A stretch of 64,000 bases of DNA from an uncultured Alphaproteobacteria bacterium (lineage in GTDB: Bacteria > Pseudomonadota > Alphaproteobacteria > Rs-D84). A program made the position numbers and the translations under genes. The stretch is from NCBI GenBank assembly GCA_934255455.1, contig CAKQNS010000002.1:11007-75006 (forward strand). The letters run 5' to 3'. Shown here piece by piece: positions 1,742 to 27,454 of the stretch. The notes under the pieces were generated by a model. It saw nothing but the letters and a program-made list of their open reading frames with translations, made no database searches and was not told the DNA's origin. Each line of letters starts with the position of its first letter. The first letter of the stretch is position 1.

Positions 1742-1768
1742 AAATGCGCCGATGGCGCATTTTTTATT
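1742..1768 (-). terminator. Intrinsic terminator (hairpin gcgccgatggcgc plus T-run) at the 3' end of family gene g1; part of the CTCTAAAAA-hairpin module
   Basis: GC hairpin flanked by an A-run and T-run immediately after stop codon 1764-1766 on the minus strand. Confidence 0.6.
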
Positions 1769-2195
1769 CTATCCAAATCGCGGCGTATGTGGTGGCATTT
1801 TGCCCACCAACCGGAATTTTTACATTACCCTTGGTCACGGTGACTTTACCATCGGTCTGGGATACATCGGTCACCACCGCACCCGTACCCGACGATGTGG
1901 AATCCAGCCCACTGATTGCTTCGGTCACGGCCTTTTGCGTCATTGCACCATCAGTGTTTGTACCTGTGGATGTATACAATTTGGTCACACCGGCCGTGGT
2001 ACCCGTACCCGTTGAATATGTCGTATCGGTTGCAGAAATAACAATTTTACCGGCATTCGCACCATTGGTTGGGGTTGAAACCGTGACATTATCCCCCGAA
2101 ACAATATTGGTTTTCGCCACAATATCCGCAAACGCCCCCGACCCCATAAACACGGCAACAAACAAACCGATAAAAATACCCCTAATAATTATCAT
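1764..2195 (-). CDS. Secreted Thr/Gly-rich protein, short member (g1) of the five-gene tandem family
   Basis: Signal peptide MIIIRGIFIGLFVAVFMGSGAFA. C-terminus …NATTYAAIWIE shares the Trp-containing C-terminal motif of the downstream paralogs. The ORF track starts at TTG 2210; an internal ATG at 2195 is the likely start. Confidence 0.5.
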   Translation of the reverse strand: MIIIRGIFIGLFVAVFMGSGAFADIVAKTNIVSGDNVTVSTPTNGANAGKIVISATDTTYSTGTGTTAGVTKLYTSTGTNTDGAMTQKAVTEAISGLDSTSSGTGAVVTDVSQTDGKVTVTKGNVKIPVGGQNATTYAAIWIE

Positions 2196-2282
2196 AGCCC
2201 TTGCATTCAAATATACACAATATTACCAAGACACATTCATAGTATGGCACCGCTGTCACGGCACCATACTATGCACGTTATA

Positions 2283-3341
2283 TTAACGACCGATATATTC
2301 CCAAACCAATGTTTGGGCACCACCCTCGGCAACTTTCAAGGTCAACGCATAATTACCAACCTTGGATAAATCATCGGTATTTTGTGCCAACTGTGTTGCC
2401 GAGATTTTACCCGCCGTGATAGCACTGTCGGCAATCTTTGCTGATGTGACATTTGCATCCGTAATCTTTGCGGTCGTCACGGCACTATCTGCCAATTTTT
2501 CAGTCGTGACATTTTTATCTGCAATCTTTGCGGTTGTGACATTTGCATCTGTAATCTTTGCTGTTGTCACGGCATTATCTGCCAGTTTTTCTGTTGTGAC
2601 ATTTTTATCTGCAATCTTTGCGGTCGTCACAGCATCGGCAGCCAATTTTGCAGCTGTCACATTTGCGTCTTTGATTTTTACTGTCGTCACAGCATCGGCA
2701 GCCAATTTTGCAGCTGTCACATTTGCGTCTTTGATTTTTACTGTTGTCACGGCATTATCTTCGATCATATCTGTTTTGATTTGACCAGTTATGATTTGAC
2801 CAGTGGCATTTGTGATAACGGCCAGGTTTTTATTTGCCTCCGTTTGGTTCTTATCAACCTTGCCATCAATCGAGTCTGCCAAATCTTTATTAACCGCATC
2901 AGCCGCATTTTTCGCAATTTCTTCGGCGACGGCAACGGTCGGGAACTTTACAGCCTTGTCGGTTGCATCTTTATTGTATGTTGTTTCTTTATTCGCAGAA
3001 TCTTCTTTGTCTTTTTTCAAACCATCAATTGCAGTTTTGTTTTCACCAATTGATGTTGTATGACCAGCAATTGCGTTTTTATTTGCTTCGATATCCTCTT
3101 TGATTGTTTTATCATCGTACGCAGTGCCCGTACCATCGATTGTGATTTTGCCATCAACAATTGTCACATCGATACCATTTGAACCGGCAAGATTTGCATC
3201 CGCCCCCCCAACTTTCAATGTGTCTTGTTTTGCCTTCAAACTCTCATCAACATACGTTGTTGCGGCGATATCTGCGCGGGCGGCACCGGCCGTCATAATT
3301 GCAATCATTGAAACTGCAAATATTCCCGATAATTTTTTCAT
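2283..3341 (-). CDS. Secreted repeat protein g2 of the tandem family (about 12 decapeptide repeats D-x-N/A-V-T-T-x-K-I/L-A)
   Basis: Start MKKLSGIF… at ATG 3341 with RBS AAGGAAAG. The first ~110 residues after the signal (…YVDESLKAKQDTLKVGGADANLAGSNGIDV…VKFPTVAVAEEIAKNAADAV) are nearly identical to g3. A 30-bp tandem repeat array encodes NAVTTVKIKDANVTAAKLAAD-type units. C-terminus GNYALTLKVAEGGAQTLVWEYIGR. Confidence 0.75.
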   Translation of the reverse strand: MKKLSGIFAVSMIAIMTAGAARADIAATTYVDESLKAKQDTLKVGGADANLAGSNGIDVTIVDGKITIDGTGTAYDDKTIKEDIEANKNAIAGHTTSIGENKTAIDGLKKDKEDSANKETTYNKDATDKAVKFPTVAVAEEIAKNAADAVNKDLADSIDGKVDKNQTEANKNLAVITNATGQIITGQIKTDMIEDNAVTTVKIKDANVTAAKLAADAVTTVKIKDANVTAAKLAADAVTTAKIADKNVTTEKLADNAVTTAKITDANVTTAKIADKNVTTEKLADSAVTTAKITDANVTSAKIADSAITAGKISATQLAQNTDDLSKVGNYALTLKVAEGGAQTLVWEYIGR

Positions 3342-3418
3342 TTTTCTTTCCTTTGCTTTCATTTATCAAAATTTATGCCATGGCACGCCAAACACGTACC
3401 ACGGCACTCGGTTATTTA

Positions 3419-4279
3419 TTATTCACCTGTAGCCGGGTTTTCATTCTCGGCGCGTTCAATAACTTCCCATGCGTATGCGGCGTTGTTATATGTCAAAACA
3501 CACTTGTTTGTCGGATTCTCACATTCGCCTGCTGGCTTTGGAATCGCTTCGTTAGCGGTTTTTTGTGCGGCATCCGCAGCGGACTTTGCTGTGGCGGCAT
3601 CCTCTACCCCCTTGTCTGCCTGGGTCTTGGCCTCTGTAATTTTTCCATCCAACGCAGTGTCGGCCGCAGTGTACGCATTTGTAATCGTGGTTGTTGCCGC
3701 GTCAATTTTATAATCAACCGAGCCCTCGGTGGTTTTATCGGCGTTCAATTTTGTAATTGCACTTGTATTTGTGCCAATGTTTGTTTCATTGGTGGAAACG
3801 CGCCCTTCCAATGTCGTTAAATCGGTTGAAACCGCATCAGCCGCATTTTTCGCAATTTCTTCGGCAACAGCAACGGTCGGGAACTTTACACCCTTGTCGG
3901 TTGCATCTTTATTGTATGTTGTTTCTTTATTCGCAGAATCTTCTTTGTCTTTTTTCAAACCATCAATTGCAGTTTTGTTTTCACCAATTGACGTTGTATG
4001 ACCAGCAATTGCGTTTTTATTTGCTTCGATATCCGCCTTGATTGTTTTATCATCGTACGCAGTGCCCGTACCATCGATTGTGATTTTGCCATCAACAATT
4101 TTCACATCGATACCATTTGAACCAGCAAGATTTGCATCCGCCCCCTCAACTTTCAATGTGTCTTGCTTTTTGCCGACCTCTTGGTCAACATATCCACGCG
4201 ATGCAACGGCGGCGTCGGCGCTGTTTGCGGCGACAATCCCCAACATTACGGTAAATATACCTGCGGTTAATTTTTTCAT
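3419..4279 (-). CDS. Secreted protein g3 of the tandem family
   Basis: Start MKKLTAGIF… with signal peptide. Same 5' upstream sequence (ttttttcatttttctttcctttc) as g2. Shared N-terminal domain with g2. C-terminus IPKPAGECENPTNKCVLTYNNAAYAWEVIE matches the C-terminal box of g4. Confidence 0.75.
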   Translation of the reverse strand: MKKLTAGIFTVMLGIVAANSADAAVASRGYVDQEVGKKQDTLKVEGADANLAGSNGIDVKIVDGKITIDGTGTAYDDKTIKADIEANKNAIAGHTTSIGENKTAIDGLKKDKEDSANKETTYNKDATDKGVKFPTVAVAEEIAKNAADAVSTDLTTLEGRVSTNETNIGTNTSAITKLNADKTTEGSVDYKIDAATTTITNAYTAADTALDGKITEAKTQADKGVEDAATAKSAADAAQKTANEAIPKPAGECENPTNKCVLTYNNAAYAWEVIERAENENPATGE

Positions 4280-4318
4280 TTTTCTTTCCTTTCTTTTTTT
4301 ATTGTTTTTTTAATTTGT

Positions 4319-5515
4319 TTATTCCAACGGTTCTGTCACATCCATCCAGTATGGGTTGCCATCCTTATCAACCGACAACACGCAACGTCCGGATTCGGCC
4401 GTGCAATTAACGCCTGGTTTCGGTACCGCGTATGCGGTCACGGCCTTGACGGATGTGTATTTGGTTGTGGAATCTTTGTCGGCGGTCGAAATCGCATCAA
4501 CACGGTTGGTGGTCTTTTCAACGCCATTTAATTCCGTCGTGATGTCGTTTTTGGTTGCCAAATCAGAAATTTTTGTTGTGGACATTTCATATTGCCCGGT
4601 TGCATTCACGGTTGCGATGCCGCCCGCGGTTTCGGCGGTCACACCGGTGACCTTGTCTGCCTTGGCCGCGACGGTGGTCGCCACGCCATCAATACGGGTG
4701 CCCAATGCGGTGTCGGCCTCGGTCAATGTGCTGACAGAATCGTCAACCAATGTATTCACCGCCTTGGCCGTTGGATATTGGTCGTCGGTCGAGGCCGCCG
4801 AAATTGTTGTCGTTTTGTTCGATACATCTTCCTTGCCCGCGACAGATGTTTTTAACGATGAAATATCGGTTTTATTCGTGTCAACCTGGGTCGATACGGT
4901 GCTCAACGCGGTTGCCGTGGCCAAATCGGTAATTTTGGTCGAAGAGGCTTCGTATTGGCCGCTTGCGTTCACGGTTGCGATGCCACCGGTGTTCGCCTCG
5001 GTCATACCAGAAACTTTATCAGCCTTGGCCGCCAATGCGTCGCCCATGTCGCCCGCGACAATTTGCGCAACTTTGTCTTCGGTAAATTTAACGATTGCAC
5101 CAACCGATGGATACAGTGTGCCCGACGCCTTGTTCTGGTCGGTAATTTCGGTTGCCTTGTTTGATGTATCTTCTTTGCCGGTCACGGCTTCTTGTAATGC
5201 GGCGACATTTGTTTCGGTCGTGCCAACACGCGTTGTCAAACCGTTCACCGTATTGTTGGTTGTTGTCAATGCCGCATTTGTTGCCAAATCGTCAATCTTG
5301 GTTGTTGAAACCTGGTATTGGCCATTTGCGTCAACCGTTGCGATGTTGCCGGCATTGTCGCCAACATTTGCAACCACGTTCGCCTTGGTGCCCGCCAAAT
5401 TATCAACATAGGCCTGGCTGGCAATTCGTTTTGCCGCCCCATCGGCCGCAGACGCCGCACCAACCGACATGATTGCCGCCATAAATCCAGAAAATGCGAT
5501 ATTATTTATTTTCAT
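4319..5515 (-). CDS. Secreted protein g4 of the tandem family
   Basis: Signal peptide MKINNIAFSGFMAAIMSVGAASA. ASQAYVDNLAGTK N-box. Repeated GIATVNASGQYE(A/M)S(S/T)TKI(T/S)DLAT units. C-terminus YAVPKPGVNCTAESGRCVLSVDKDGNPYWMDVTEP. RBS AAGGAAAAAA. Confidence 0.75.
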   Translation of the reverse strand: MKINNIAFSGFMAAIMSVGAASAADGAAKRIASQAYVDNLAGTKANVVANVGDNAGNIATVDANGQYQVSTTKIDDLATNAALTTTNNTVNGLTTRVGTTETNVAALQEAVTGKEDTSNKATEITDQNKASGTLYPSVGAIVKFTEDKVAQIVAGDMGDALAAKADKVSGMTEANTGGIATVNASGQYEASSTKITDLATATALSTVSTQVDTNKTDISSLKTSVAGKEDVSNKTTTISAASTDDQYPTAKAVNTLVDDSVSTLTEADTALGTRIDGVATTVAAKADKVTGVTAETAGGIATVNATGQYEMSTTKISDLATKNDITTELNGVEKTTNRVDAISTADKDSTTKYTSVKAVTAYAVPKPGVNCTAESGRCVLSVDKDGNPYWMDVTEPLE

Positions 5516-5560: not shown

Positions 5561-6973
5561 CTATGGTTCCACAATTACAATCTCGGACCACGCGCCACCA
5601 CCATTACCATCGGCCGCAAATATATAGTTGCCAGCCGTTTCGGGCGCCGTCATGCCACCAGTTGCCGAAATGGTATCGCCATCAATCGTGATGTTCGTGC
5701 CCGCGGTCAATTTATTTTGCTTGCCCGCCAACGCGGTGTTGATGTCGGTCTTGGTGTAATATTGGTCCGCATCAAATGTACCAGATTGGGTAATTTTCGC
5801 ATCAACCTCGGTCTTGGTATATGCGTCACCAATGCCATATCCCGCCAGGGTTGTTGCCTTGTCCGCCTTGGTCGCGATTGATGCAGTGTTTGCCTCTATC
5901 GCGGCGGTATTTGCATCTATGGCATTTTTATTTGCACTGATGTTTGTGGCATTCGCACCAATCAATGTACGCACCGCCGTGTCGTCATACGATTTCGCCG
6001 AAATGGTATCGCCATCAATCGTGATGTTCGTACCCGCGGTCAATTTATTTTGTTTGTCCGCCAATGCCGTGTTCGTTTCGGTCTTGGTATAATATTGTTC
6101 CGCATCAAATGTACCAGAATCACGGATTTTCGCATCAACTTCGGCCTTGGTATAAACATCCGTCTTGGCCGCATAGATTGCCGACAGTGCACTGATTGCA
6201 TCTGCAATCGCGGTGTTCATTTGCTCTGTTGTGGAATATGCACTTAAATCCGCCGGAGTACCGGGTTCACCCGCCGGCCCCTGGGGCCCAGTGATTTCCG
6301 CCTTGGAAATCAGAATTCGCCAATCAGCATCACCCTCGCCCGCATAGCGCCATAACAGGTCGTTGTCATTTGAACCAATTTCAACCTCGCGCCCATCCTG
6401 GCCGGCGATGCTGCCTATTTCGTCTTTTAACCCATCAACATCAACATAAATTTGATTTGTTGTATTATCAATTACAATAAAACCGTTCAGTGTCGGTTCC
6501 AGCGTATCTTGTTTGTCACCCAATTGGCTTGATAAACTATCGTCCGCTTGGTGCAGTTCCTCGGTATCGCGCTGTAATTGGTCAATTTGACGACGCAAAT
6601 CCGCCACAACCGACGGATCAGTTGTACCACCTTCGCCCGGTTCCGGACGCACAGAACTGCCCCCGCTGACGGATGTGGTGCCCCCCAAATATTTTCCAAT
6701 AGATAAACGCGGTGTTGTTGCCACACGACCCGTTGTTGTTGCGGCCACCGGCTTTGCCGTCGCCGTCGTGCCGGTTTTACCAGCCGTTGGTGTCACACGC
6801 AATGACCCCGCACGCGCCGCACCGGTCGATGTTGCATTTGATGCGGCCGACGCACTGGAGTATGTTCCAGCCCCACCCAGCGAACGCACCGACGATGCCG
6901 CGTCAGCCCCGGAAACCGTGGCGCACACCGCACACACAATCGCAAGTATCGATATTTTGGTGTTATTTTTCAT
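5561..6973 (-). CDS. Secreted protein g5 of the tandem family; collagen-like triplet and phage-tail-fibre-like repeats
   Basis: Signal peptide MKNNTKISILAIVCAVCATVSGADA. KQDTL box as in g2/g3. …WRILISKAEITGPQGPAGEPGTP… Two ~55-aa direct repeats YTK(A/T)EVDAKI…GTFDA(E/D)QYYTKT…LA(D/G)KQNKLTAGTNITIDGDTISA. C-terminus …GGGAWSEIVIVEP. Confidence 0.75.
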   Translation of the reverse strand: MKNNTKISILAIVCAVCATVSGADAASSVRSLGGAGTYSSASAASNATSTGAARAGSLRVTPTAGKTGTTATAKPVAATTTGRVATTPRLSIGKYLGGTTSVSGGSSVRPEPGEGGTTDPSVVADLRRQIDQLQRDTEELHQADDSLSSQLGDKQDTLEPTLNGFIVIDNTTNQIYVDVDGLKDEIGSIAGQDGREVEIGSNDNDLLWRYAGEGDADWRILISKAEITGPQGPAGEPGTPADLSAYSTTEQMNTAIADAISALSAIYAAKTDVYTKAEVDAKIRDSGTFDAEQYYTKTETNTALADKQNKLTAGTNITIDGDTISAKSYDDTAVRTLIGANATNISANKNAIDANTAAIEANTASIATKADKATTLAGYGIGDAYTKTEVDAKITQSGTFDADQYYTKTDINTALAGKQNKLTAGTNITIDGDTISATGGMTAPETAGNYIFAADGNGGGAWSEIVIVEP

Positions 6974-7035
6974 GACTCTCTCTGCTTACATTGATTCTAT
7001 CATATTTTGCGAATCGGGGTCAATACTTTTTCTCA

Positions 7036-7767
7036 TTAAAATTCGTATCTGACGCCAACCGAAATAGAATTATCCCAAATCATGTCGATTTTGTTTTCAA
7101 AATTGCCGTATGTCGGGGTGTTATCCTTGATACCAATGCTGTGTTTTGTGCCCGTCATACCCGCCAAACGATAACGCAAATCTAATATCAAATTGTCGTC
7201 CAATTTGGTTGAATATCCAACTGCGATGTTCGCCATTGGCGCAATTGATGTTTTGCTGCGACTGGTTCCATCGGAATATATATTTGCAAATTTAACATCC
7301 AATGTTGTCATTGGCGCGGCAATACCCAAACCACCACCAACATACACGCCGTTCAAGAAATCATAGTATCCGTTGGCCGAAATATATGGGATTTGCAGGC
7401 TGAATTCTGAACCTGCATCTTTGTCTTCGAAATGACCGATGTATCCGGCTTCGACCTCGCCCCGCCAGAAATAGCCAAAATGGCGACCGGCGGCCAAACT
7501 GCCCCCGAATACGGGTTCAAACGAATAACTGTCACTGTTGGACGACAAATCGGCACCCGCCGCCAACAAATCAGACGAGTATTTATTCTTCCAATTCAGG
7601 AAACTAATCTCGGCACGAGCGGTCATATACCAGCCTGTTTTTGCCTTGTCCGTGTAATCGTATGTCACATTATAACCGCCACGACGATCCGGTTGAATAT
7701 AGCTGGGCGCCGCGGTGGCCGCGGTTGTCATACCAACCAGCACAAACAACGAAACTAATTTTTTCAT
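7036..7767 (-). CDS. Outer-membrane beta-barrel protein (porin/OmpA-like barrel family)
   Basis: Signal peptide MKKLVSLFVLVGMTTAATAA. Alternating amphipathic beta-strand pattern. C-terminal …SVGVRYEF ends in the aromatic residue typical of OMP barrels. Strong RBS AAGGAG before ATG 7767. Confidence 0.65.
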   Translation of the reverse strand: MKKLVSLFVLVGMTTAATAAPSYIQPDRRGGYNVTYDYTDKAKTGWYMTARAEISFLNWKNKYSSDLLAAGADLSSNSDSYSFEPVFGGSLAAGRHFGYFWRGEVEAGYIGHFEDKDAGSEFSLQIPYISANGYYDFLNGVYVGGGLGIAAPMTTLDVKFANIYSDGTSRSKTSIAPMANIAVGYSTKLDDNLILDLRYRLAGMTGTKHSIGIKDNTPTYGNFENKIDMIWDNSISVGVRYEF

Positions 7768-8480: not shown

Positions 8481-9272
8481 ATGGAAGAAAAGACAGCGAT
8501 TTCATTTGCAAATGTGGCCGCCGCGTACGACGGTGGGCGCGATGTTTTAACAGATGTTTCATTTAACATCAGTGCGGGGGCATTCTATTTCCTATCGGGC
8601 GCGTCGGGCGCGGGTAAAACCACCCTATTACGACTGATATACCAATTACACCGACCATCACGCGGGCAAATTAAATTATTCGGTCAACCAACCGACGGAA
8701 TTTCGCGCGACGATATTGCGCGCCTGCGTCACAAAATGGCGATTGTATTCCAAGAATATTCTTTGCTGTCACATTTGACGGTGTTTGACAACATTGCATT
8801 ACCGTTGCGTGTGCGCGGCCTGCCCGATGATAAAATAAAAAAATTGGTGGCCAAGGTTCTGGAATGGGTTGGCCTGGCCAAATATGCCGATGCAAACCCA
8901 ATGGCGCTGTCGGGCGGTCAACAACAACGCGTATCGGTTGCGCGTGCGATTATTAGCCAACCGGCGATATTACTGGCCGACGAACCGACCGGAAATCTGG
9001 ACGACGAAAACGCATCGCGGTTGATGGAACTGTTTATACAAATGAACAAAATGTTCGGCACAACGATAATTTTGGCCACCCATAATCAAAAATTGATGGA
9101 CACCTATAAATTCCCGGTTATTCACGTGGAAAACCATCGGGTTGGCTTTATTGGTGGCACGAAAAAGGCCCCTGCCCCGGAATCTGATGTGAAAAAGGTA
9201 TGGAAGGGCCCCAAGCCACAAAACTATTTTTCAGAATTATCAAAACAATTTGACGATATTGGGAACGCGTAA
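8481..9272 (+). CDS. ftsE: Cell-division ABC transporter ATPase FtsE
   Basis: Walker A GASGAGKTT, ABC signature LSGGQQQRV, Walker B LLADEPTGNLD. Stop overlaps the ftsX start. The ORF track begins at TTG 8445; ATG 8481 is the likely start. Confidence 0.85.
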   Translation: MEEKTAISFANVAAAYDGGRDVLTDVSFNISAGAFYFLSGASGAGKTTLLRLIYQLHRPSRGQIKLFGQPTDGISRDDIARLRHKMAIVFQEYSLLSHLTVFDNIALPLRVRGLPDDKIKKLVAKVLEWVGLAKYADANPMALSGGQQQRVSVARAIISQPAILLADEPTGNLDDENASRLMELFIQMNKMFGTTIILATHNQKLMDTYKFPVIHVENHRVGFIGGTKKAPAPESDVKKVWKGPKPQNYFSELSKQFDDIGNA

Positions 9273-10111
9273 TGAAAACACCTGTTGTATTTTCGCTGGT
9301 ACGCCAGCAATCTGTATTTATGACGGCAATTATGTCATTGCTGACATTTTTGGCGGTGCTGTCGCTGGGAATTGGATTGGCCATTGGTACCGGCGTTATG
9401 CGTTGGAATACCCAGTGGGATTTATTTGCAACGGTTCAAATAACCGATACAAAAAATGCCGCATCGGTAAAGCAAATTATTACCGATAATCACGACAAAA
9501 TGGCATCTGTTGATGAAATCACAACAACCGAAATGCAAAATTTAATGCGGCCGTGGCTGTCATCGGGTGGTGATACACTGAAAAAATACCTGCCACAAAT
9601 GTATGAAATAAAATTCAAATCTAAATCCGATTTGCAATATGTTGAACAGCAAATTTCAAATCGCGCGCGTTTTCTGACACATGCCAACGCGTTAAAGACA
9701 TCGACAAACGCGGGATGGTATTTGATTCTGATTTCAACACTGGTTTTGACAATGGTGTTGGGCACGATTGGCGTATGCATATCGTACATCGCACGCAATA
9801 CCGCAATGCTGCATAAACGCGAATTAGAAATATTAAACCAAATTGGCGCATCCGATTCGTTTGTTGCCCGCCAAATGCAAATCATTGTGGCAAAAATATC
9901 TGCAACATCGGGCCTGGTTGGGTTTATGGCGGCGGCATTGATTTTAATGATGGTGCTGGGCGCCGCACGCACCGCACGGGTTGGACTGATGGCGATGCTG
10001 GGGTTATCTGGGTGGGGATGGTTTGCATTGGCGTTGTTGCCGGTGGTAATTATGTTTTTCGCAATGGAAATTTCACGCCGTACGACATTAAAGATTCTTG
10101 AAAATAATTGA
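9272..10111 (+). CDS. ftsX: Cell-division permease FtsX
   Basis: 279 aa with four TM segments in FtsX topology (N-terminal TM, periplasmic loop, three C-terminal TM). Translationally coupled to ftsE. Confidence 0.75.
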   Translation: MKTPVVFSLVRQQSVFMTAIMSLLTFLAVLSLGIGLAIGTGVMRWNTQWDLFATVQITDTKNAASVKQIITDNHDKMASVDEITTTEMQNLMRPWLSSGGDTLKKYLPQMYEIKFKSKSDLQYVEQQISNRARFLTHANALKTSTNAGWYLILISTLVLTMVLGTIGVCISYIARNTAMLHKRELEILNQIGASDSFVARQMQIIVAKISATSGLVGFMAAALILMMVLGAARTARVGLMAMLGLSGWGWFALALLPVVIMFFAMEISRRTTLKILENN

Positions 10112-10620
10112 TGAAAATTTTAACACCATCTTTGCTGTTATTTGGATTATTCATATTGGGGGGCATAGTGTTCAAATCTATGGCCCCGACCCAATGTGGG
10201 CCAATACAATCAAACGACAGTATATTTGTTCTGACCGGGGATATGCGGCGTATACCGTTTGCAATGCGCATTGGGCGCCAATATCCCGACACGCAAATAT
10301 ACATCATTGGCGTTGGTGCCCCCACATCATACGAAATGACAAACCGCATCAATGTTGAATCGCAATCGAAATCAACATATCAAAATGCCGTGGCCATACG
10401 CGACATTGTTGCCCGCGAAAACCTGGCCCGCATTGTCGTCATAACGACCGAGGATCATATCAATCGTGCCATATATTTATTGCACGACGAATTACCCAAC
10501 ACGGACATAGTTGCATGCCCTGCTCGACTGTACGGTATGCCACCACCACAACGATTACAACGTTGGATAACCGAGTATATAAAATACATCGTCACAATGA
10601 CCGGAATCAAGGAAAGTTAA
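10108..10620 (+). CDS. DUF218 (YdcF/ElyC/SanA-family) envelope protein
   Basis: N-terminal TM, …IFVLTGDMRRI…STYQNAVAIRDI…IVVITTEDHINRA… typical of DUF218. Start overlaps the ftsX stop (ATGA). Confidence 0.6.
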   Translation: MMKILTPSLLLFGLFILGGIVFKSMAPTQCGPIQSNDSIFVLTGDMRRIPFAMRIGRQYPDTQIYIIGVGAPTSYEMTNRINVESQSKSTYQNAVAIRDIVARENLARIVVITTEDHINRAIYLLHDELPNTDIVACPARLYGMPPPQRLQRWITEYIKYIVTMTGIKES

Positions 10621-10630
10621 AGGAACAAAT

Positions 10631-11341
10631 ATGATGATAAAGACCGTGATATTTAAATTAGTATTGGCAATATATTATGTCGTGTGGTCACCAATTATTT
10701 TGATTGGATTGGTGTCCAAACCGCTGAACGATTTTCTGGTGCGGACATGTGCCGGTGGCGTTTTAGTGCTGGCCCGATTGATTGTTGGCATAAAATATGA
10801 AATACACTGTCCCCCAACCGAAGAAAACGGCATTCCATGCACGCCAAATGATAACGCGCGTCTGGACGGCAAGGCCATAATTGCCGCCAAACACATGTCT
10901 ATATTGGAAATAGCCATTTTGGCGACGCATATTCCAAATTCTTTTTTCATTGTAAAACGTGAAATTATATGGTTCCCAATTTACGGGTGGGCGTTTTGGC
11001 GTATGGGCCTGCAACCGGTGAACCGTGCGCGTGGCGCGACAAATATGCACAAATTGGCAACCAATGTGGCCGAAAAAATTATGGATGGCAAAATTCTGAT
11101 TATTTTCCCCGAGGGCACGCGTGTAAAACCAGGCCAACATATTTCATTGAAACGCGGCCTGTTGTACCTGGCCCATGAATTAAAATTACCCATTTTGCCG
11201 GTGGGAACCGATACAGGACTGTATTGGCCCAAACATGGCCGTATGCGTGGCGGCACCGCCAATGTTTGGTTTGAACCAATGCTGCCTTGCAACGCGTCAC
11301 TGGATGAAATCAGCGCAGCAATCAACCGCCACAGCGCATAA
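10631..11341 (+). CDS. plsC: 1-acyl-sn-glycerol-3-phosphate acyltransferase (LPLAT family)
   Basis: N-terminal TM; acyltransferase motifs (…AAKHMSILE… block I variant, FPEGTR block III, PILPVG block IV). Confidence 0.7.
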   Translation: MMIKTVIFKLVLAIYYVVWSPIILIGLVSKPLNDFLVRTCAGGVLVLARLIVGIKYEIHCPPTEENGIPCTPNDNARLDGKAIIAAKHMSILEIAILATHIPNSFFIVKREIIWFPIYGWAFWRMGLQPVNRARGATNMHKLATNVAEKIMDGKILIIFPEGTRVKPGQHISLKRGLLYLAHELKLPILPVGTDTGLYWPKHGRMRGGTANVWFEPMLPCNASLDEISAAINRHSA

Positions 11342-18422: not shown

Positions 18423-19541
18423 TTACATGCGCATCGGCATCAATATAAACAATGCGTCGGTGTCCTTGTCCGTCGATTTAATAATCGTTGGCGACAACGG
18501 ATCCTGCATTTCCATCTGGAATTTTTCACCTTCAACCTGGCCGGCAACATCCATCAAGAATTTCACATTAAATGTGACCGTAAACGATGCATCACCATTG
18601 TATTCAATGTCCAATTCCTGGGTTGCGGTACCGGCATCTGGGCTGGACGCATTCACAACCAATTTGTTCATTGAATATGTCAATTGCACAGATTTTGTTT
18701 TATCCATACTGGCAACAGACACCAAATCGACCGCGTTCAAGAACTGTTTTCTGTCCAGAACGGCAATTTTATCGTTGCCCTTTGGAATTACAACACGATA
18801 GTTCGGATATTGCGCATCAACCAGTTTGCTGGTCAAAATTGCCGAACCAACTGTGAAACGCGCCTTGGTATCGGACAATTCAACCGTCACATCATCAACA
18901 GTTGCATCTTCCAATAATTTGGACAATTCACCAATCACGCGACGCGGCAAAATAACCGCCGGCATTTCTGCACTGCCCGCGGGGGCCGGCATTGCACACA
19001 GCGCCATACGCTGGGCATCGGTGGCAACCGCGGTCAACATTTTTTCTTTGCCTTCGTCCGCAATGTGGAAATAAATACCACCCAAATGATAGCGAACATC
19101 GTCGGTTGGAATTGCAAATTTGGTTTGGTTTATCAAATGCGCCAAATCGCCAGTTGTCATCTGGAATTTTGTGGTCAGATTGCTGCCCGCCATGGCCGGG
19201 AAATTTTCCGCCGGCAATGTTGGCAAACGGAATACGGCGCGCCCACTGGACACAACCAATTGGTCACCCGATTGTTTGAAAGTAATTTCGGCATCATCCG
19301 GCAATTTACGAACAATATCATACAACATCTGGACCGGAACAGTTGTTTTTCCACCCAATGTAATATCGGCCGCAACATGTTCAACCAATTCCAAATCAAC
19401 ATTTGTCGCAGACAGGATTAAATCATCTGCAACCTCTAACTTTACATTCATCAATATCGGCAGTGTTGCGCGCTTTTCCACAATTGATTGCATGTGGCCC
19501 AATGCACGAATTAAAACCTGACGAAATACTGAAAATTCCAT
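18423..19541 (-). CDS. dnaN: DNA polymerase III beta sliding clamp
   Basis: 372 aa. N-terminus …ALGHMQSIVEKRATLPILMNVKLEV… aligns with DnaN along its length. RBS AGGAG. Confidence 0.9.
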   Translation of the reverse strand: MEFSVFRQVLIRALGHMQSIVEKRATLPILMNVKLEVADDLILSATNVDLELVEHVAADITLGGKTTVPVQMLYDIVRKLPDDAEITFKQSGDQLVVSSGRAVFRLPTLPAENFPAMAGSNLTTKFQMTTGDLAHLINQTKFAIPTDDVRYHLGGIYFHIADEGKEKMLTAVATDAQRMALCAMPAPAGSAEMPAVILPRRVIGELSKLLEDATVDDVTVELSDTKARFTVGSAILTSKLVDAQYPNYRVVIPKGNDKIAVLDRKQFLNAVDLVSVASMDKTKSVQLTYSMNKLVVNASSPDAGTATQELDIEYNGDASFTVTFNVKFLMDVAGQVEGEKFQMEMQDPLSPTIIKSTDKDTDALFILMPMRM

Positions 19542-19702
19542 AACACGCTCCTAGTATCTATATGTGTTCCCACATTCTTTTGTTCGATTTTACCAAAAAA
19601 TGCCGATTCGGTGCAAGGGGAAAACAAAGCCCGTACAATCGGTTTGTTATTTGCGGATAATTGCTTTTTGTCAAAAACAAAAACGCCCCAAACGGGGCGA
19701 TT

Positions 19703-20461
19703 TTACTTTGCCAGAACTTTGGACAATTTGGTTCGCAATTTTTTTATATCGTCGTACTTTGTAAATTTTCCCTTTTCGGCAATTGATATGTCACCACTTT
19801 CTTCGGATACCACCAAAACGGTCGCACTGGATAATTCCGACAACCCCAGCGCCGCACGGTGACGTGTACCATATTTCCAATTCAGATTATTTTGCGACAA
19901 TGGCAAAATTGCACCAGCATACGCAATACGATTTCGGTCTATTATTACCGCTCCATCATGCAATGGCGTTTTGTTAAAGAATATGGTCAACAACAATTCA
20001 CTGGTAATAACGGCATCTATGCGAACGCCCTTCTTTTCAATGACGCTTTCGTCCAATGTTGACGGAAACACAATCAACGCACCGGTATGTTTTGCCGACA
20101 TATATTCAACCGCACTGCAAATTGCATCCAATCCGCGGGTATCTTGGGCGCTGGCATCACCAAGATGAAATATGCGGGACCAGCCTTCGATATTTCCCAT
20201 CAACGCCATAAATTTTCGCAATTCTGGTTGGAATATAACAATCAAGCCCAATGACAAGAACAATGCCGTCCAATGCAAAAACGCCCCCAGTAAATCCAGA
20301 TGCGCCCACGACAAAATAAAACTGAGTATCCACAGCGCCGCCAGCCCAAACAACCCACGCACCAATTTTTCAGACGATGTGTTGCGAATAAAACCGCGGT
20401 AAAATAACCATACAATCGCCGCGATAATAATAACCTGAATAAAACCCAACCAATTAAACAT
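19703..20461 (-). CDS. cdaA: Diadenylate cyclase CdaA (c-di-AMP synthase), membrane-anchored
   Basis: Three N-terminal TM helices then a DAC domain with both catalytic motifs: HDGAVIIDRNRI and GTRHRAALGLSE…VLVVSEESG. Confidence 0.85.
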   Translation of the reverse strand: MFNWLGFIQVIIIAAIVWLFYRGFIRNTSSEKLVRGLFGLAALWILSFILSWAHLDLLGAFLHWTALFLSLGLIVIFQPELRKFMALMGNIEGWSRIFHLGDASAQDTRGLDAICSAVEYMSAKHTGALIVFPSTLDESVIEKKGVRIDAVITSELLLTIFFNKTPLHDGAVIIDRNRIAYAGAILPLSQNNLNWKYGTRHRAALGLSELSSATVLVVSEESGDISIAEKGKFTKYDDIKKLRTKLSKVLAK

Positions 20462-20464
20462 TTT

Positions 20465-22558
20465 TTATTTTTCCCCCTGTGTTTGTTTTGACATAATTGT
20501 TTGTTGTAATTCTGGTATCGGCAAATTCATCCATTCTGGGTCGTTGCGCATATCTGGCGCACCGCGTTCCATGGCGGTTTCGCACGGATGATCATCCGCC
20601 AGCCAATTTTCCAACAAATCCCCAGCCAGTAAACCAACGCCCGCCCCCGCGACCAAACCGATACCACCGGTAAATGGCGCCAACAACAATCCCAAACCGG
20701 TTGCTGATGCAACCTTGCCCGCGACGGCCGCACCACTGATGCGGACATCTGGCTCGGACAAATTGCCACTGATTTCTATGGAATTTACAACATTTCCGGT
20801 CAACGATAATTTCAGTCCACGCACCGGAACCGTGGTCAATGCCATTTTCATATTTTCGCCCCCCAAATTCAAATTACCTGCCAGGCGCAAATTGATAACA
20901 TTTGTTTCAACCGCAACGCCATTTTGCGTTTCGGCAACGCCATCGCGCAATTTAGTATTCAGGGCCACGCATTTAATCGTAAAACCGTTGTACTTTTTTT
21001 CGCTACGCAACGAATCTTCTATTGCGTGCCGCACCGATGTAAGAAAATCTGTTCCGTACATATATGACATCAATGCCGAATGCGCATACCCCGTGCCCGA
21101 TGATTTAATCTGGACCGGGCCGGTAATAGTCGACATCATTTCCGACAAATTGGTTCCATTGCCCTGAATATATAAATCTATGTTCGTGGGCAGCCCAGAT
21201 ATAAAATCAGATTCCCAAACCTCGTTCAATATTTGACCAATCAATATATCACGTCCAGTTGCCGCCACGGTCGCAAATATGCGTCCATCGGCATCAATGT
21301 CGCCATCGGCACCAATTTGAATATTGCCACCACCAATTGTGGCCCCCATATCAATTCGCACCACGCGGTTTTGCACTTTTGCGGTCAAATCAATTTGCCC
21401 AATTGTCAAATCACGATAAACAATCAGTTTGCCAATCTTGGCCCGAACGGTGCCATTAAATCCGCCGATTTCACGTCCAAACAGCGGGATATCATGAAAC
21501 GCGTTTAATTCACGATCGGGGTGCGTCCAATTGCCATCATATACATCGGGGAATATCTGAATCAGATTTAACGATTTTGATTCAACATTCGCATTCAATT
21601 GTGGTGTCGCCCGCGACCAATCAAATGCACCCGATATGGTCAATTCGTTCCCACGCACCACAATTGACGATTTGCGCAATGTCAGTTTTGAATGATCCAA
21701 CCCGCCCGCAATGTTCACCTGCATCTTTGGCACTTTGTGCAAGTCCAATTTCAGCAAACGCCCCACTGCACGAATGTCTGGAATGTCACCCTTGATTATA
21801 AAATCAATTGGCATACGGCTTTGGCCTTCAAGTGCGATATTTGCAATCAATGCATTTCCACCCGATGAAAAAGCAATACGCATTGGGTATACACGGCGTT
21901 CGGCGTTATATTCCGAATATGTAATTATAAATGGAAATACATCATCACCATTTTTTATCCACCCAGCGTATTCACGCGAATCTGATTTCGGAACATACCG
22001 CAATTGAAACCCAGACAATGAATATGATTCATCAAAAATATGTGCGACCAGGTTTCGAACCTCTACCCCGCCCAAGCCAGGATCTGTAAATGGGTATTTT
22101 GACTGTACAGTTTTTGTCCCATCATCTGAGGCGGTATTATCAGCCAACGCCGACACAATAGAATATGCACCATCGGCGTTTTTTTCCAGGCATACCGTCG
22201 CATCATACACCTTGATGTTTTGAATTGTTGGGCGCGATTGAAACAGTGAAAACAAATTCAATGTGACATCTATTTTTTCGGCACTGAATGCATATTTATG
22301 TTTTGCCCAATCGGCATTCGGAACGCGCACCTGGTTTAATTCAATCCGCGGACGCAGCGAAAATTTCCACGACACGGCACCATCTATTTCAACCGGCATA
22401 CCAGTCGCATTTTGTAATATCGACAAAATGTTGCCACGCAGTGTTTCCAAATTTACCTGGGATAACGCAATTACAAACGCCACAACCATACCGACGATAA
22501 ACAGCATGACTATGCGCATAATTGTCAGAAAAGATTTATTTCGTTTCCGTGTGACCAA
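20465..22558 (-). CDS. AsmA-family outer-membrane assembly protein
   Basis: 697 aa. N-terminal TM anchor then a long predicted beta-rich periplasmic domain. AsmA/DUF3971-like size and organisation. Confidence 0.5.
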   Translation of the reverse strand: MVTRKRNKSFLTIMRIVMLFIVGMVVAFVIALSQVNLETLRGNILSILQNATGMPVEIDGAVSWKFSLRPRIELNQVRVPNADWAKHKYAFSAEKIDVTLNLFSLFQSRPTIQNIKVYDATVCLEKNADGAYSIVSALADNTASDDGTKTVQSKYPFTDPGLGGVEVRNLVAHIFDESYSLSGFQLRYVPKSDSREYAGWIKNGDDVFPFIITYSEYNAERRVYPMRIAFSSGGNALIANIALEGQSRMPIDFIIKGDIPDIRAVGRLLKLDLHKVPKMQVNIAGGLDHSKLTLRKSSIVVRGNELTISGAFDWSRATPQLNANVESKSLNLIQIFPDVYDGNWTHPDRELNAFHDIPLFGREIGGFNGTVRAKIGKLIVYRDLTIGQIDLTAKVQNRVVRIDMGATIGGGNIQIGADGDIDADGRIFATVAATGRDILIGQILNEVWESDFISGLPTNIDLYIQGNGTNLSEMMSTITGPVQIKSSGTGYAHSALMSYMYGTDFLTSVRHAIEDSLRSEKKYNGFTIKCVALNTKLRDGVAETQNGVAVETNVINLRLAGNLNLGGENMKMALTTVPVRGLKLSLTGNVVNSIEISGNLSEPDVRISGAAVAGKVASATGLGLLLAPFTGGIGLVAGAGVGLLAGDLLENWLADDHPCETAMERGAPDMRNDPEWMNLPIPELQQTIMSKQTQGEK

Positions 22559-22560
22559 TT

Positions 22561-23541: not shown

Positions 23542-23558
23542 TGCAATACCCGTATATA

Positions 23559-24023: not shown

Positions 24024-24072
24024 AATATATCTCCCATTTGCTATTTGTTTTTTTTATTCTATCATATTTGAT

Positions 24073-25494: not shown

Positions 25495-25521
25495 TGTGCA
25501 TACAAGCAAAGGAGAAATAAT

Positions 25522-26121: not shown

Positions 26122-26129
26122 TAAAATAC

Positions 26130-26152
26130 CGGCAAAATTTGCCGGTATTTTT
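26130..26152 (+). terminator. Intrinsic terminator of pgsA (ccggcaaaatttgccgg plus T-run)
   Basis: Perfect hairpin followed by ttttttt. Confidence 0.7.
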
Positions 26153-26166
26153 TTACTGCAAAAAAA

Positions 26167-26200
26167 CGCACTATGTGCACTGTTTCCTGCACATAGCGCG
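26167..26200. repeat. Full palindromic copy of the GCGCTATGTGCA motif family (cgcactatgtgcactgtttcctgcacatagcgcg), also acting as the dnaJ terminator
   Basis: 13-bp arms around an 8-nt loop. Half-site copies at 43277, 52105 and 54403. Confidence 0.6.
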
Positions 26201-26204
26201 ATTT

Positions 26205-27338: not shown

Positions 27339-27454
27339 AATTTCAGGCCTGTTATTTCTTGATGTTGAATATATAGACCGATTAGATAAAAAATCAAGCC
27401 CCGAAAACTGTTTCACTTGCGAAAAATGAAATTTTGCGCTAATAATATGATGCT

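What the first reader, a model, noticed from the sequence alone, without database searches (positions are those of the whole stretch)
5561..6973. Family member g5 looks like a domesticated phage tail fibre (collagen-like triplet plus duplicated tail-fibre-type repeat)
The protein has …WRILISKAEITGPQGPAGEPGTP… followed by two ~55-aa direct repeats (DNA ~5665-5830 and ~5995-6160, ~88% identical) with the motif YTK(A/T)EVDAKI…QYYTKT…KQNKLTAGTNITIDGDTISA. Short collagen-like runs and YTKxE…-type repeats are characteristic of phage side-tail-fibre and receptor-binding proteins. No other phage structural genes, integrase or terminase are present in the window, so this would be a stand-alone tail-fibre-like gene recruited as a surface protein, or a remnant.
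Basis: partly seen in the sequence, partly recalled or inferred. Interest (0 to 1): 0.6.

Follow-up and report, generated by a model that had tools for sequence, protein, structure and literature searches.

The report
Mosaic exported trimeric fibre gene
g5 is the first gene of a conserved five-gene chromosomal cluster in an uncultured gut alphaproteobacterium that encodes exported, fast-evolving, probably three-stranded fibre proteins assembled from building blocks also used by phage tail fibres and bacterial adhesin stalks; it is not a stray or decaying phage gene.

Summary
Window 5561-6973 (-) is an intact 470-aa ORF with a four-triplet collagen-like run and two 53-aa repeats (158 nt, 89% identical).

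g5 has no Pfam, NCBIfam or direct GenBank-phage tail-fibre match. Its modules do occur in viral contigs, and the proteins there match annotated tail fibres. The same YTKxE motif and the IxxN heptads are also hallmarks of trimeric autotransporter stalks such as NadA, so the modules are generic parts of trimeric fibres.

g5 is not stand-alone and not a remnant:
- It has a signal peptide.
- It sits among housekeeping genes near dnaA.
- In all seven related loci examined it is the first fibre gene after Pal and a small outer-membrane protein gene.
- dN/dS is 0.15, against 0.02-0.04 for neighbouring genes.

A family-specific N-terminal region defines at least 224 clusters at 50% identity. Shafts are mosaic and are swapped between near-identical strains.

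Best reading: a Sec-exported trimeric surface fibre, analogous to the Bdellovibrio MAT fibres. Its anchoring and export across the outer membrane are unknown. It is a new variant of a known kind, of moderate interest.

The parts
6994..7023 (-). Promoter-like site (TTGACC-18 nt-TAGAAT, with TG before the -10) in the 62-nt gap between the outer-membrane protein gene and g5
   Evidence: Consensus scan, 10 of 12 matches. This is a pattern match only, not evidence of function.
6899..6973 (-). g5 aa 1-25: Sec-type signal peptide MKNNTKISILAIVCAVCATVSGADA|A
   Evidence: Read directly: basic n-region, hydrophobic core, A-x-A site. Conserved in all orthologues. No lipobox. No signal-peptide predictor was available.
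6614..6898 (-). g5 aa 26-120: family-defining Ser/Thr/Gly/Ala-rich N-terminal region with three Arg/Gly motifs (ASSVRxLGGxGTY; RxGSxRV; RLSIGKYLGG). Presumed cell-proximal anchor or docking segment.
   Evidence: Invariant across 51 diverse members: R30, G33, G34, T37, R54, R59, R89, G93. 224 clusters at 50% identity carry it, always at residues about 20-170. Predicted disordered, pLDDT 30-50, in both AlphaFold runs.
6494..6613 (-). g5 aa 121-160: coiled-coil helix ending in KQDTL
   Evidence: AlphaFold helix 120-155, pLDDT 89-96.
6290..6493 (-). g5 aa 161-228: beta-hairpin (GFIVIDNTTNQIYVDVD), a helix, then a three-stranded beta-module GQDGREVEIG..LLWRYAG..DWRILISKAEI
   Evidence: AlphaFold strands 166-177 and 197-223, pLDDT 74-94. 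PHROG 19976 in 42 of 54 orthologues. 29 IMG/VR loci carry the module. No solved structural homologue found.
6254..6289 (-). g5 aa 229-240: collagen-like GPQGPAGEPGTP, four G-X-Y triplets
   Evidence: Below the Pfam Collagen threshold in g5; two longer orthologues hit PF01391 at E 9e-4.
6155..6253 (-). g5 aa 241-273: Ala-rich helix (ADLSAYSTTEQMNTAIADAISALSAIYAAKTDV)
   Evidence: AlphaFold helix 249-269. Conserved in orthologues.
5996..6154 (-). g5 aa 274-326: repeat copy A. Two YTKxE beta-layer motifs, a helix, KQNKL, and the hairpin NITIDGDTISA.
   Evidence: DNA repeat. NadA and beta-layer constructs matched by the family profile. Hairpin strands 317-324.
5822..5995 (-). g5 aa 327-384: coiled coil with four IxxNxxx heptads (Ile at a, Asn at d: I338/N341, I345/N348, I352/N355, I359/N362), then KADKATTLAGYGIGDA
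   Evidence: Read directly. AlphaFold helix 332-374, pLDDT about 90. Weak hits to a SadA fragment and to crAss-like phage cr109_1. Asn-at-d layers in trimeric autotransporter coils: PMC13580157.
5663..5821 (-). g5 aa 385-437: repeat copy B
   Evidence: 89% nt and 87% aa identity to copy A.
5564..5662 (-). g5 aa 438-470: C-terminal beta-hairpin cap APETAGNYIFAADGNGGGAWSEIVIVEP with the family-invariant Trp
   Evidence: Strands 449-454 and 460-465. Trp is invariant across 23 C-termini including paralogues g1-g4. Not detectably a T4 foldon.
7036..7767 (-). Upstream co-oriented 243-aa outer-membrane protein (probable small beta-barrel), always adjacent to g5 orthologues
   Evidence: Faint or weak PF13505 hits on orthologues. 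NCBIfam Rickettsia Adr adhesin E 4e-4. Same gene order in seven loci.
4319..5515 (-). g4: 398-aa paralogue with a signal peptide, mature N-terminus ..IASQAYVD, three 121-aa repeats, and a Cys-bridged C-terminal hairpin
3419..4279 (-). g3: 286-aa paralogue; terminator-like hairpin at 3375-3407 after it
2283..3362 (-). g2: paralogue with decapeptide repeats; terminator-like hairpin at 2238-2273 after it
   Evidence: PHROG 28766 'tail fiber protein' E 6e-39. Tandem repeats. Terminator scan.
1764..2210 (-). g1: 148-aa paralogue; terminator-like hairpin at 1703-1721 after it
   Evidence: Pfam Phage_fiber_2 E 1e-3, 19.1 bits, below the 22-bit cut-off. C-terminus conserved across arrays.

Best explanation
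g5 encodes a Sec-exported protein that most likely forms a parallel homotrimeric fibre displayed on the cell envelope. It is the lead, anchor-bearing member of a conserved chromosomal array of five such fibre genes.

Order of parts from the N-terminus:
1. A cleaved signal peptide.
2. A roughly 95-residue disordered Ser/Thr/Gly-rich segment with three invariant Arg/Gly motifs. I infer that this segment docks the fibre to an envelope component.
3. A coiled coil.
4. A small beta-module followed by a short collagen-like tract, a combination common in phage fibre proteins.
5. A shaft of two 111-residue units built from beta-layer motifs (YTKxE, KQNKL, KADK), helices with Asn at heptad position d, and beta-hairpins.
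6. A C-terminal Trp-containing hairpin that probably nucleates or caps the trimer.

Shown: the anatomy, the conserved gene order, the fast but constrained evolution, and the sharing of modules with phage fibres and adhesin stalks.

Inferred: trimer formation, surface location, an adhesive or antigenically variable role, and the way the fibre is anchored.
For: Export:
- Signal peptide read from the sequence and conserved in all orthologues.

Trimeric fibre signatures:
- The family profile matches the NadA stalk (8e-7) and GCN4-fused beta-layer constructs (3e-5) on KANxADVYTKxEVYxKxE.
- PMC4786415 describes LxxKADKxxVYTKxE as a co-optimised beta-layer tandem found in trimeric fibres, both autotransporter adhesins and the prophage tail fibre HylP1.
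- g5 has four consecutive IxxNxxx heptads. PMC13580157 shows that Asn-at-d layers sit in the core of trimeric coiled coils.
- A conserved collagen-like run is present.
- AlphaFold gives long helices, hairpins and a small beta-module with locally high confidence.

Phage-type modules:
-.

Resident chromosomal locus:
- The gene order Pal, outer-membrane protein, g5-like gene, then 2-4 further fibre genes (followed by DedA, RbfA and LepA where the contig extends that far) was seen in all seven related loci examined. TolB identity to the window is 82-98%.

Functional and fast evolving:
- Against L006, dN is 0.078 and dN/dS 0.146 for g5, compared with dN 0.005-0.013 and dN/dS 0.015-0.05 for the neighbours.
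- The shaft of the g2-slot gene is entirely replaced in a strain whose TolB is 98% identical, while the signal peptide and C-terminus are kept.
- Modules are shared among paralogues within an array.

Family breadth:
- The N-terminal region is found in 224 clusters at 50% identity, always at the N-terminus and joined to very different C-terminal parts.

Precedent:
- Bdellovibrio MAT fibres have a signal peptide, a conserved N-terminal domain, a mosaic phage-like trimeric fibre, and a shown surface location (PMC10769870).
Against: - No direct evidence of oligomeric state or location. AlphaFold was run on the monomer only (mean pLDDT 53 and 65).
- No recognisable outer-membrane anchor, lipobox, autotransporter barrel or known sorting signal. 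How a folded trimer would cross the outer membrane is unexplained.
- Paralogues g1-g4 lack the g5-type N-terminal region, so their attachment is even less clear.
- The C-terminus is conserved and the middle is variable. This is the reverse of the usual adhesin layout, where the tip varies.
- The conserved gene order comes from one clade only (TolB at least 82% identical), so adjacency to the outer-membrane protein gene may reflect shared ancestry rather than function.
Confidence: 0.6

Rival explanations
1. Domesticated or remnant prophage tail fibre: a phage receptor-binding gene left behind after prophage decay, either inert or recently co-opted.
For: - Modules are shared with viral contigs and, through them, with annotated tail fibres.
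- PHROG hits to tail-related families across the orthologues.
- g2 matches a tail-fibre PHROG at E 6e-39.
- g1 is near threshold for Phage_fiber_2.
Against: - A signal peptide is present. From general knowledge, virion fibres assemble in the cytoplasm and do not carry one.
- No phage genes in 64 kb of housekeeping context around dnaA.
- Same locus and gene order in all seven related loci examined, which span TolB identities of 82-98%.
- dN/dS of 0.146 shows selection on the protein.
- The N-terminal 120 residues are a bacterial family signature not found in the viral hits.
- An ancient phage origin of individual modules remains possible but cannot be given a direction.
Confidence: 0.08
2. A released, not cell-bound, trimeric protein: a soluble lectin, a matrix or biofilm fibre, or a bacteriocin-like targeting protein exported through a secretin.
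For: - A signal peptide but no recognisable anchor.
- A secretin and a TcpQ-like gene lie in the same window at 37027-39705.
- From memory: the Legionella collagen-like protein Lcl is exported by type II secretion.
Against: - A strongly conserved N-terminal Arg/Gly motif region across 224 clusters suggests docking to a conserved partner rather than free release.
- The secretin is 30 kb away and lies beside dprA-like and pilus-type genes, with no link shown.
- No toxin or enzymatic domain is detected.
Confidence: 0.15
3. A periplasmic structural protein, for example an Lpp-like spacer or tether between outer membrane and cell wall, suggested by the tol-pal neighbourhood.
For: - The locus lies next to pal, tolB and an outer-membrane protein gene.
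- Weak Alanine_zipper (Lpp/OprI-like) hits in g3 and six orthologues.
- No outer-membrane translocation signal is visible.
Against: - Lengths range from 150 to 1095 aa, shafts are swapped between strains, and dN is 5-10 times that of the neighbours. This fits poorly with a spacer whose length should be fixed.
- No lipobox or peptidoglycan-binding domain.
- Phage-fibre modules and hypervariability are typical of exposed proteins.
Confidence: 0.07
4. Fibres of a phage-tail-like particle or gene transfer agent encoded elsewhere in the genome.
For: - From memory: Alphaproteobacteria often carry gene transfer agents whose fibre or spike genes lie away from the main cluster.
- The module content is phage-like.
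Against: - All five proteins have signal peptides, which is incompatible with cytoplasmic particle assembly.
- No particle genes in the window.
- The N-terminal signature is absent from the viral hits.
Confidence: 0.03

Closest known systems
Bdellovibrio bacteriovorus MAT (mosaic adhesive trimer) fibres (PMC10769870)
   Same: - A signal peptide followed by an N-terminal region conserved across the family.
- A long trimeric fibre with phage-tail-fibre-like elements.
- Mosaic, swappable parts and several paralogues per genome.
- The cell-proximal N-terminus is proposed to bind an unidentified surface element.
   Different: - No sequence match to the solved MAT fragments.
- The N-terminal part here is a disordered Ser/Thr/Gly-rich segment plus a coiled coil, not a 130-aa beta-rich domain.
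- No S74 protease/chaperone domain.
- The genes form one conserved array next to pal.
- The C-termini are conserved and the middles vary.
- The host is a gut alphaproteobacterium with no evidence of predation.
Trimeric autotransporter adhesin stalks (NadA, SadA, AtaA)
   Same: - The YTKxE/KADK beta-layer tandem, with NadA as the best solved match of the family profile.
- Asn-at-d heptads (weak SadA hit).
- Segmented alternation of coiled coil and beta structure.
   Different: - No C-terminal YadA-type membrane anchor and no head domains.
- The protein ends in a 25-residue soluble hairpin.
- The conserved, presumably cell-proximal part is at the N-terminus.
Phage tail fibres and fibritin-type fibres (HylP1 of a Streptococcus prophage, T4 fibritin, tail fibres of Erwinia S6, Bacillus SP82G, Campylobacter NCTC12673)
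   Same: - The beta-module with collagen tracts, the KADKATTLxGYGITDAYTKTEVD segments, and hairpins of the GxxITIxxxxIS type occur in viral proteins that match annotated tail fibres.
- Some orthologues pass the Pfam Fibritin_C threshold on internal coil repeats.
   Different: - g5 has a signal peptide and a bacterial N-terminal signature.
- It sits in a core chromosomal locus with no virion genes.
- g5 itself hits no Pfam tail-fibre family.
- The C-terminal hairpin is not detectably a foldon.
Bacterial collagen-like surface proteins (Legionella Lcl, Burkholderia Bucl, streptococcal Scl; comparison from memory)
   Same: - A signal peptide.
- A G-X-Y tract flanked by trimerising domains.
- Variation in repeat number between strains.
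   Different: - Only four triplets in g5, so collagen is a minor element.
- No similarity outside the G-X-Y run.

Membership tests
Pfam phage tail-fibre repeat families (Phage_fiber PF03335, Phage_fiber_2 PF03406) | A hit to the family HMM at or above the gathering score | tested here: not met
   g5 has no hit even at E<=1. Paralogue g1 scores 19.1 bits against a 22-bit cut-off.
Phage tail fibre in the functional sense | Encoded with other virion or tail genes in a phage or prophage | tested here: not met
   Housekeeping flanks and window. The same core locus in seven related loci.
Phage tail fibre in the functional sense | Sequence modules shared with phage fibre proteins | tested here: met
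   PHROG 19976 in 42 of 54 orthologues. 29 plus 5 IMG/VR loci. These viral proteins match annotated tail fibres. Direct tblastn of g5 against GenBank phages gave only one weak hit.
Collagen triple-helix repeat (PF01391) | A run of G-X-Y triplets long enough to reach the family threshold | tested here: not met
   g5 has four triplets and no Pfam hit. The short run is nevertheless conserved. Two orthologues with longer runs reach E 9e-4.
Trimeric autotransporter adhesins (type Vc secretion) | C-terminal YadA-type beta-barrel membrane anchor | tested here: not met
   No YadA_anchor hit in g5 or in any of the 54 aligned family members (g5 and 53 orthologues). The C-terminus is a short hairpin.
Trimeric autotransporter adhesins (type Vc secretion) | Stalk motifs: beta-layer tandems and Asn-at-d heptads | tested here: met
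   NadA at 8e-7 with the family profile. Four IxxN heptads. Literature: PMC4786415, PMC13580157.
T4 fibritin foldon (C-terminal part of Pfam Fibritin_C) | C-terminal roughly 27-residue hairpin homologous to [27 protein letters not shown] | tested here: not met
   A profile of 23 C-termini finds none of the many foldon-tagged PDB chains. The Fibritin_C hits in two orthologues fall on internal repeats at aa 456-479. Only the general shape, a hairpin with a core Trp, is alike.
Bdellovibrio MAT superfamily | Signal peptide plus a family-conserved N-terminal domain, followed by a mosaic fibre | tested here: met
   The architecture is met by analogy.
Bdellovibrio MAT superfamily | Homology of the N-terminal domain to the MAT 130-aa beta-rich domain | not testable with these tools
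   No full-length MAT sequence was available. The solved MAT fragments were not matched. The predicted structures differ: disordered here, beta-rich in MAT (PMC10769870).
Bdellovibrio MAT superfamily | Trimeric state and surface location | not testable with these tools
   Only monomer prediction was available. There are no experimental data for this uncultured organism.
Bdellovibrio MAT superfamily | S74 protease/chaperone C-terminal domain (in 13 of 21 MATs) | tested here: not met
   No Peptidase_S74 hit in g5 or the orthologues.

The most novel reading that the evidence does not exclude
The invariant N-terminal segment (ASSVRxLGGxGTY ... RxGSxRV ... RLSIGKYLGG) may be a previously undescribed envelope-targeting device. 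It could dock the g5 trimer onto, or thread it through, the adjacent upstream outer-membrane protein, in effect an N-terminally anchored 'inverse' counterpart of trimeric autotransporters. Alternatively it could bind lipopolysaccharide through its conserved arginines. The four 'anchorless' paralogues, which all begin with IASxxYVD, might then join g5 to form a multi-protein fibre, as phage long tail fibres do. That would be a new surface-display pathway, with a cassette-swapping antigenic variation locus, in a little-known group of human gut bacteria.
Probability: 0.1. Interest if true: 0.75.

Novelty: new variant of a known kind. Interest (0 to 1): 0.42.

Why it matters
Gut Alphaproteobacteria of this clade are uncultured, and their surface biology is unknown. 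This locus is probably their most variable surface feature. That makes it a candidate determinant of adhesion, immune recognition or phage susceptibility.

The family has no match in Pfam or NCBIfam, yet it comprises at least 224 clusters at 50% identity.

It adds a second, independent example, after the Bdellovibrio MAT fibres, of bacteria building exported trimeric fibres from the module set that phage tail fibres and autotransporter stalks share. It also poses a concrete question: how such fibres are anchored and exported without a known anchor.

For annotation, it shows that YTKxE-type repeats and short collagen runs indicate 'trimeric fibre', not 'phage'.

Tried and rejected
- **Foldon hypothesis.** I suspected the C-terminal hairpin (..GNYIFAADGNGGGAWSEIVIV) was a T4 fibritin foldon. 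A profile search of PDB and hhalign gave nothing. The Fibritin_C hits in orthologues lie elsewhere in those proteins. Rejected as homology and kept only as a similarity of shape.
- **Structure comparison.**
  - The full-length monomer model was poor (pLDDT 53), and Foldseek against PDB gave nothing significant (best E 0.83, AtaA stalk).
  - The afdb50 library was unavailable.
- **Direct sequence searches with g5.**
  - PDB: nothing significant.
  - GenBank phages: one weak hit.
  - Plasmids: three short module hits.
  - NCBIfam: none.
- **Lipoprotein anchor.** The two invariant Cys residues in the signal peptide do not sit in a lipobox (read). Rejected.
- **Covalent peptidoglycan link.** I considered a link through an N-terminal Ala-Asp motif as in Brucella outer-membrane proteins (from memory). 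'AD' occurs near the cleavage site in all five proteins of this window but is not conserved in g5 orthologues, which read ...AYG|ASSVR. Not pursued.
- **N-terminal segment as a membrane beta-barrel.** The conserved stretches are short, poor in aromatic and hydrophobic residues, and predicted disordered. Kept only as a low-probability novel case.
- **Phase-variation signals.** No convincing invertible-promoter repeats or simple-sequence tracts near the g5 start.
- **Literature.** A search for GYGITDA-type motifs found nothing.
- **Source names.** Cluster look-up gave no informative names from any source for ten family members.
Full report
**1. The observation**

Window 5561-6973 on the minus strand is an intact 470-aa ORF. 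The collagen-like run is GPQGPAGEPGTP, residues 229-240, which is four G-X-Y triplets. The two repeats are 5664-5821 and 5997-6154: 158 nt, 89% identical, 333 nt apart. They correspond to residues 385-437 and 274-326, with 46 of 53 residues identical. Both features are conserved or vary in copy number among orthologues, so they are real features and not chance.

**2. Anatomy of g5**

This section combines direct reading with two AlphaFold monomer runs. The first run used 54 sequences and gave a mean pLDDT of 53. The second covered residues 1-260 with a more diverse alignment and gave pLDDT 74-96 for residues 120-260.

- Residues 1-25 form a Sec-type signal peptide ending GADA|A, with no lipobox.
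- Residues 26-120 are rich in Ser, Thr, Gly and Ala and are predicted disordered. They contain short, strongly conserved motifs: ASSVRxLGGxGTY, RxGSxRV and RLSIGKYLGG. Across 51 diverse members, R30, G33, G34, T37, R54, R59, R89 and G93 are invariant.
- Residues 121-160 form a confident helix ending in KQDTL.
- Residues 161-228 form a beta-hairpin, a helix and a three-stranded beta-module (GQDGREVEIG..LLWRYAG..DWRILISKAEI).
- Residues 229-240 are the collagen-like run.
- The shaft consists of two units of about 111 residues. Each has YTKxEVD and YYTKTE motifs, a helix, KQNKL and the hairpin NITIDGDTISA.
- The first unit continues into a confident helix (332-374) made of four IxxNxxx heptads: I338/N341, I345/N348, I352/N355 and I359/N362. 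That helix ends in KADKATTLAGYGIGDA.
- The last 30 residues form a beta-hairpin with a Trp that is invariant across the family and the paralogues.

**3. What the motifs are**

A profile of g5 plus 53 orthologues was searched against all PDB sequences. The best match was the Neisseria adhesin NadA (4cjd, E 8e-7). Next came GCN4-fused constructs made to study beta-layers (7oaa and 7oac, E 3e-5 and 1e-4). All aligned on KANxADVYTKxEVYxKxE.

Hartmann et al. (eLife 2016, PMC4786415) showed that such motifs form beta-layers, which are short triangular beta interruptions of trimeric coiled coils. [quoted passage not shown] The same paper lists the motif in the tail-fibre hyaluronidase of a Streptococcus pyogenes prophage (2C3F).

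Asn at heptad position d is typical of trimeric autotransporter stalks. It coordinates anions in the core of trimers (PMC13580157).

The YTK repeats, the IxxN heptads and the collagen run all point to a parallel trimeric fibre. None of them distinguishes a phage origin from a bacterial one.

**4. Tests of the phage tail-fibre reading**

Direct tests are weak:
- No Pfam hit to Phage_fiber, Phage_fiber_2 or Collagen.
- No NCBIfam hit.
- One weak tblastn hit among 50,697 phage records, to a hypothetical protein of crAss-like phage cr109_1 on the Asn-rich helix.
- Two weak PHROG hits: PHROG 16867, function unknown, E 2e-5; and PHROG 19976, 'tail assembly protein', E 6e-4.

At the level of modules and family the link is real:
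- 42 of 54 orthologues hit PHROG 19976 on the beta-module plus collagen tract. Others hit tail-fibre, minor-tail and fibritin PHROGs.
- 29 IMG/VR viral loci encode the GxDGREVEL..IQWRYxG..W..L..ItGPxG module. It is often tandemly repeated between collagen tracts, in proteins of 250-2300 aa.
- Five viral loci encode KADKATTLxGYGITDAYTKTEVDAKI and YTK arrays. One of them has an N-terminus that, from memory, resembles those of tail fibres.
- These viral proteins in turn match annotated tail-fibre genes of Erwinia, Pseudomonas, Bacillus and Campylobacter phages.
- Paralogue g2 matches a tail-fibre PHROG at E 6e-39 through its decapeptide repeats.

**5. Why g5 is neither stand-alone nor a remnant**

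*Organism and context.* The organism is an uncultured gut alphaproteobacterium. Identical or near-identical genes occur in human gut metagenomes, including Hadza samples. The 64-kb window is housekeeping DNA around dnaA, dnaN and gyrB, with no phage genes among the ORFs tested.

*The array.* g5 is followed on the same strand by four smaller paralogues: g4 at 4319-5515, g3 at 3419-4279, g2 at 2283-3362 and g1 at 1764-2210. It is preceded by a 243-aa outer-membrane protein gene. A promoter-like site lies just upstream of g5. Terminator-like hairpins follow g3, g2 and g1.

*Conserved gene order.* The order Pal, outer-membrane protein, g5-like gene, then 2-4 further fibre genes recurs in all seven related loci examined, followed by DedA, RbfA and LepA where the contig extends that far. 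TolB identity to the window is 82-98%. Each slot in the array keeps its own signal peptide, mature N-terminus and C-terminal hairpin, while the middle of the protein differs. For g2-g4 the mature N-terminus is ..IASxxYVD.

*Rate of evolution.* The comparison is with the closest relative, L006 (TolB 98% identical).

| Gene(s) | dN | dS | dN/dS |
|---|---|---|---|
| g5 | 0.078 | 0.53 | 0.146 |
| g4 | 0.046 | 0.35 | 0.13 |
| g3 | 0.097 | 0.47 | 0.21 |
| TolB, FtsE, FtsX, DedA, Pal | 0.005-0.013 | 0.24-0.30 | 0.015-0.05 |

The fibre genes therefore evolve 5-10 times faster at non-synonymous sites, probably with imported alleles, yet remain under purifying selection.

*Cassette exchange.* In L006 the gene in the g2 slot has the same signal peptide and C-terminus but a completely different shaft. 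Within arrays, paralogues share modules. In this window g2 and g3 share 300 nt at 96% identity. In L046 three adjacent genes share one repeat type. This is the pattern expected of a recombining, hypervariable surface-protein locus.

**6. The family**

Residues 20-165 of g5 were searched against 1.84 billion representative proteins. They matched 224 clusters at E<=1e-3 and 96 at E<=1e-10. The match was always at residues about 20-170 of proteins ranging from 150 to 1095 aa. Downstream parts are highly mosaic. They include collagen tracts, decapeptide repeats, NKP-type repeats, YTK arrays and several types of C-terminal cap. The most distant listed member whose context could be read still lies in the same locus. 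So far, therefore, the family looks confined to one clade.

**7. How it most likely works**

- *Shown:* the protein has the sequence hallmarks of an exported protein and of a segmented trimeric alpha/beta coiled-coil fibre. It belongs to a conserved, rapidly diversifying, recombining array.
- *Inferred:* after Sec export and signal-peptide cleavage, three chains associate. Association is probably nucleated by the conserved C-terminal hairpin and the coiled coils, and forms a rod. The conserved Arg/Gly motifs in the flexible N-terminal segment hold it to an envelope component. Candidates are the adjacent outer-membrane protein or lipopolysaccharide. The variable shaft is exposed.
- *Unknown:* how the fibre crosses the outer membrane. 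A secretin at 37027-38691 was noted but is not linked to it by any evidence.

The closest known analogue is the Bdellovibrio MAT family. MAT proteins have a signal peptide, a conserved N-terminal domain thought to bind an unidentified surface element, and mosaic phage-like trimeric fibres shown to be on the cell surface (PMC10769870). I found no sequence homology to solved MAT fragments, and the N-terminal part looks different. I therefore treat this as a functional analogy and not as membership.

g5 is not a trimeric autotransporter, because it has no membrane anchor. Its C-terminal hairpin is not a foldon.

**8. Verdict**

- Tail-fibre-type modules and recruitment as a surface protein: yes.
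- A phage-specific signature, a stand-alone gene, or a remnant: no.

The repeats match both worlds, because the modules are common building blocks of trimeric fibres.

Novelty: a new variant of a known kind, namely an uncharacterised family of exported mosaic fibres.

Interest is moderate. The unexplained parts are the N-terminal signature, the export route and the role of the anchorless paralogues, and these are where something new could lie.

Noticed in passing
window 2881-3180 vs 3819-4118 (also 3330-3359 vs 4268-4297): g2 and g3 share 300 nt at 96% identity, plus near-identical 5' leader and signal-peptide DNA, while their 3' halves are unrelated. This suggests a recent duplication or gene conversion inside the array.
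   Followed up: partly
L006 13812-14720, compared with window g2 (2283-3362): In a strain whose TolB is 98% identical, the g2 slot keeps the signal peptide and the C-terminal hairpin. Its shaft is replaced by two copies of an unrelated 77-aa unit (..YDDLDNKPTIPAAQVNADWNSTEG..). This is cassette replacement between close strains.
   Followed up: partly
window 4554-5395 (g4) and 2422-2751 (g2): g4 contains three 363-nt (121-aa) repeats at 60-75% identity. g2 contains a 30/60/90-nt decapeptide-repeat array that matches PHROG 28766 'tail fiber protein' at E 6e-39.
   Followed up: partly
window 7036-7767 (-): A 243-aa outer-membrane protein gene lies directly upstream of g5 on the same strand in every related locus. 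It has weak PF13505 and Rickettsia Adr-adhesin similarity. It diverges faster (49-64% identity) than housekeeping neighbours in the more distant relatives. It may be the docking partner of the fibres, but this is untested.
   Followed up: partly
window 37027-38691 and 38695-39705 (-): A secretin with a lipoprotein-like N-terminus, next to a gene with a TcpQ-like C-terminal domain, close to a DprA gene (33874-34965). It could belong to a pilus, competence or type II-like system. No link to the fibres was shown.
   Followed up: no
window 18423-33628: The window spans the replication-origin region: dnaN at 18423-19541, gyrB at 27455-29434, dnaA at 32285-33628. The fibre array therefore lies about 25 kb from dnaA.
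   Followed up: no
window 30679-32154 (-) and 49843-51381 (-): Two large ORFs (491 and 512 aa) have no Pfam hit at E<=1e-5.
   Followed up: no
mature N-termini of g1-g4 and their slot-orthologues (e.g. window g3 aa 24-33; L007, L009, L010): The anchorless paralogues in slots 2-4 (g2-g4 and their counterparts) begin, right after the signal peptide, with a conserved ..IAS(K/Q)xYVD motif. This is a beta-layer or 'neck'-type start like ATKAYVDKAI in the HylP1 tail fibre. Two slots have a Cys-x(5-6)-Cys pair in the C-terminal hairpin (PMC4786415).
   Followed up: partly
P0123 (536 aa): One database member joins the g5-type N-terminus to what looks, by reading the sequence, like a YidC-type membrane insertase C-terminus. 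This is most likely a mis-assembly or a gene-calling chimera.
   Followed up: no
L019, protein ORF 9008-10666: A viral-contig protein with two copies of the beta-module also contains ..GEAPNDGQEYVRKNEA.., which closely resembles the T4 foldon motif. True foldon-like motifs therefore do travel with these modules in phages, even though the g5 family's own C-terminus is not one.
   Followed up: no
window 19703-20461 (-) and 52693-54321 (-): A DisA-type diadenylate cyclase domain protein and an MCRA-family protein (from memory, an oleate hydratase family) are encoded in the window.
   Followed up: no
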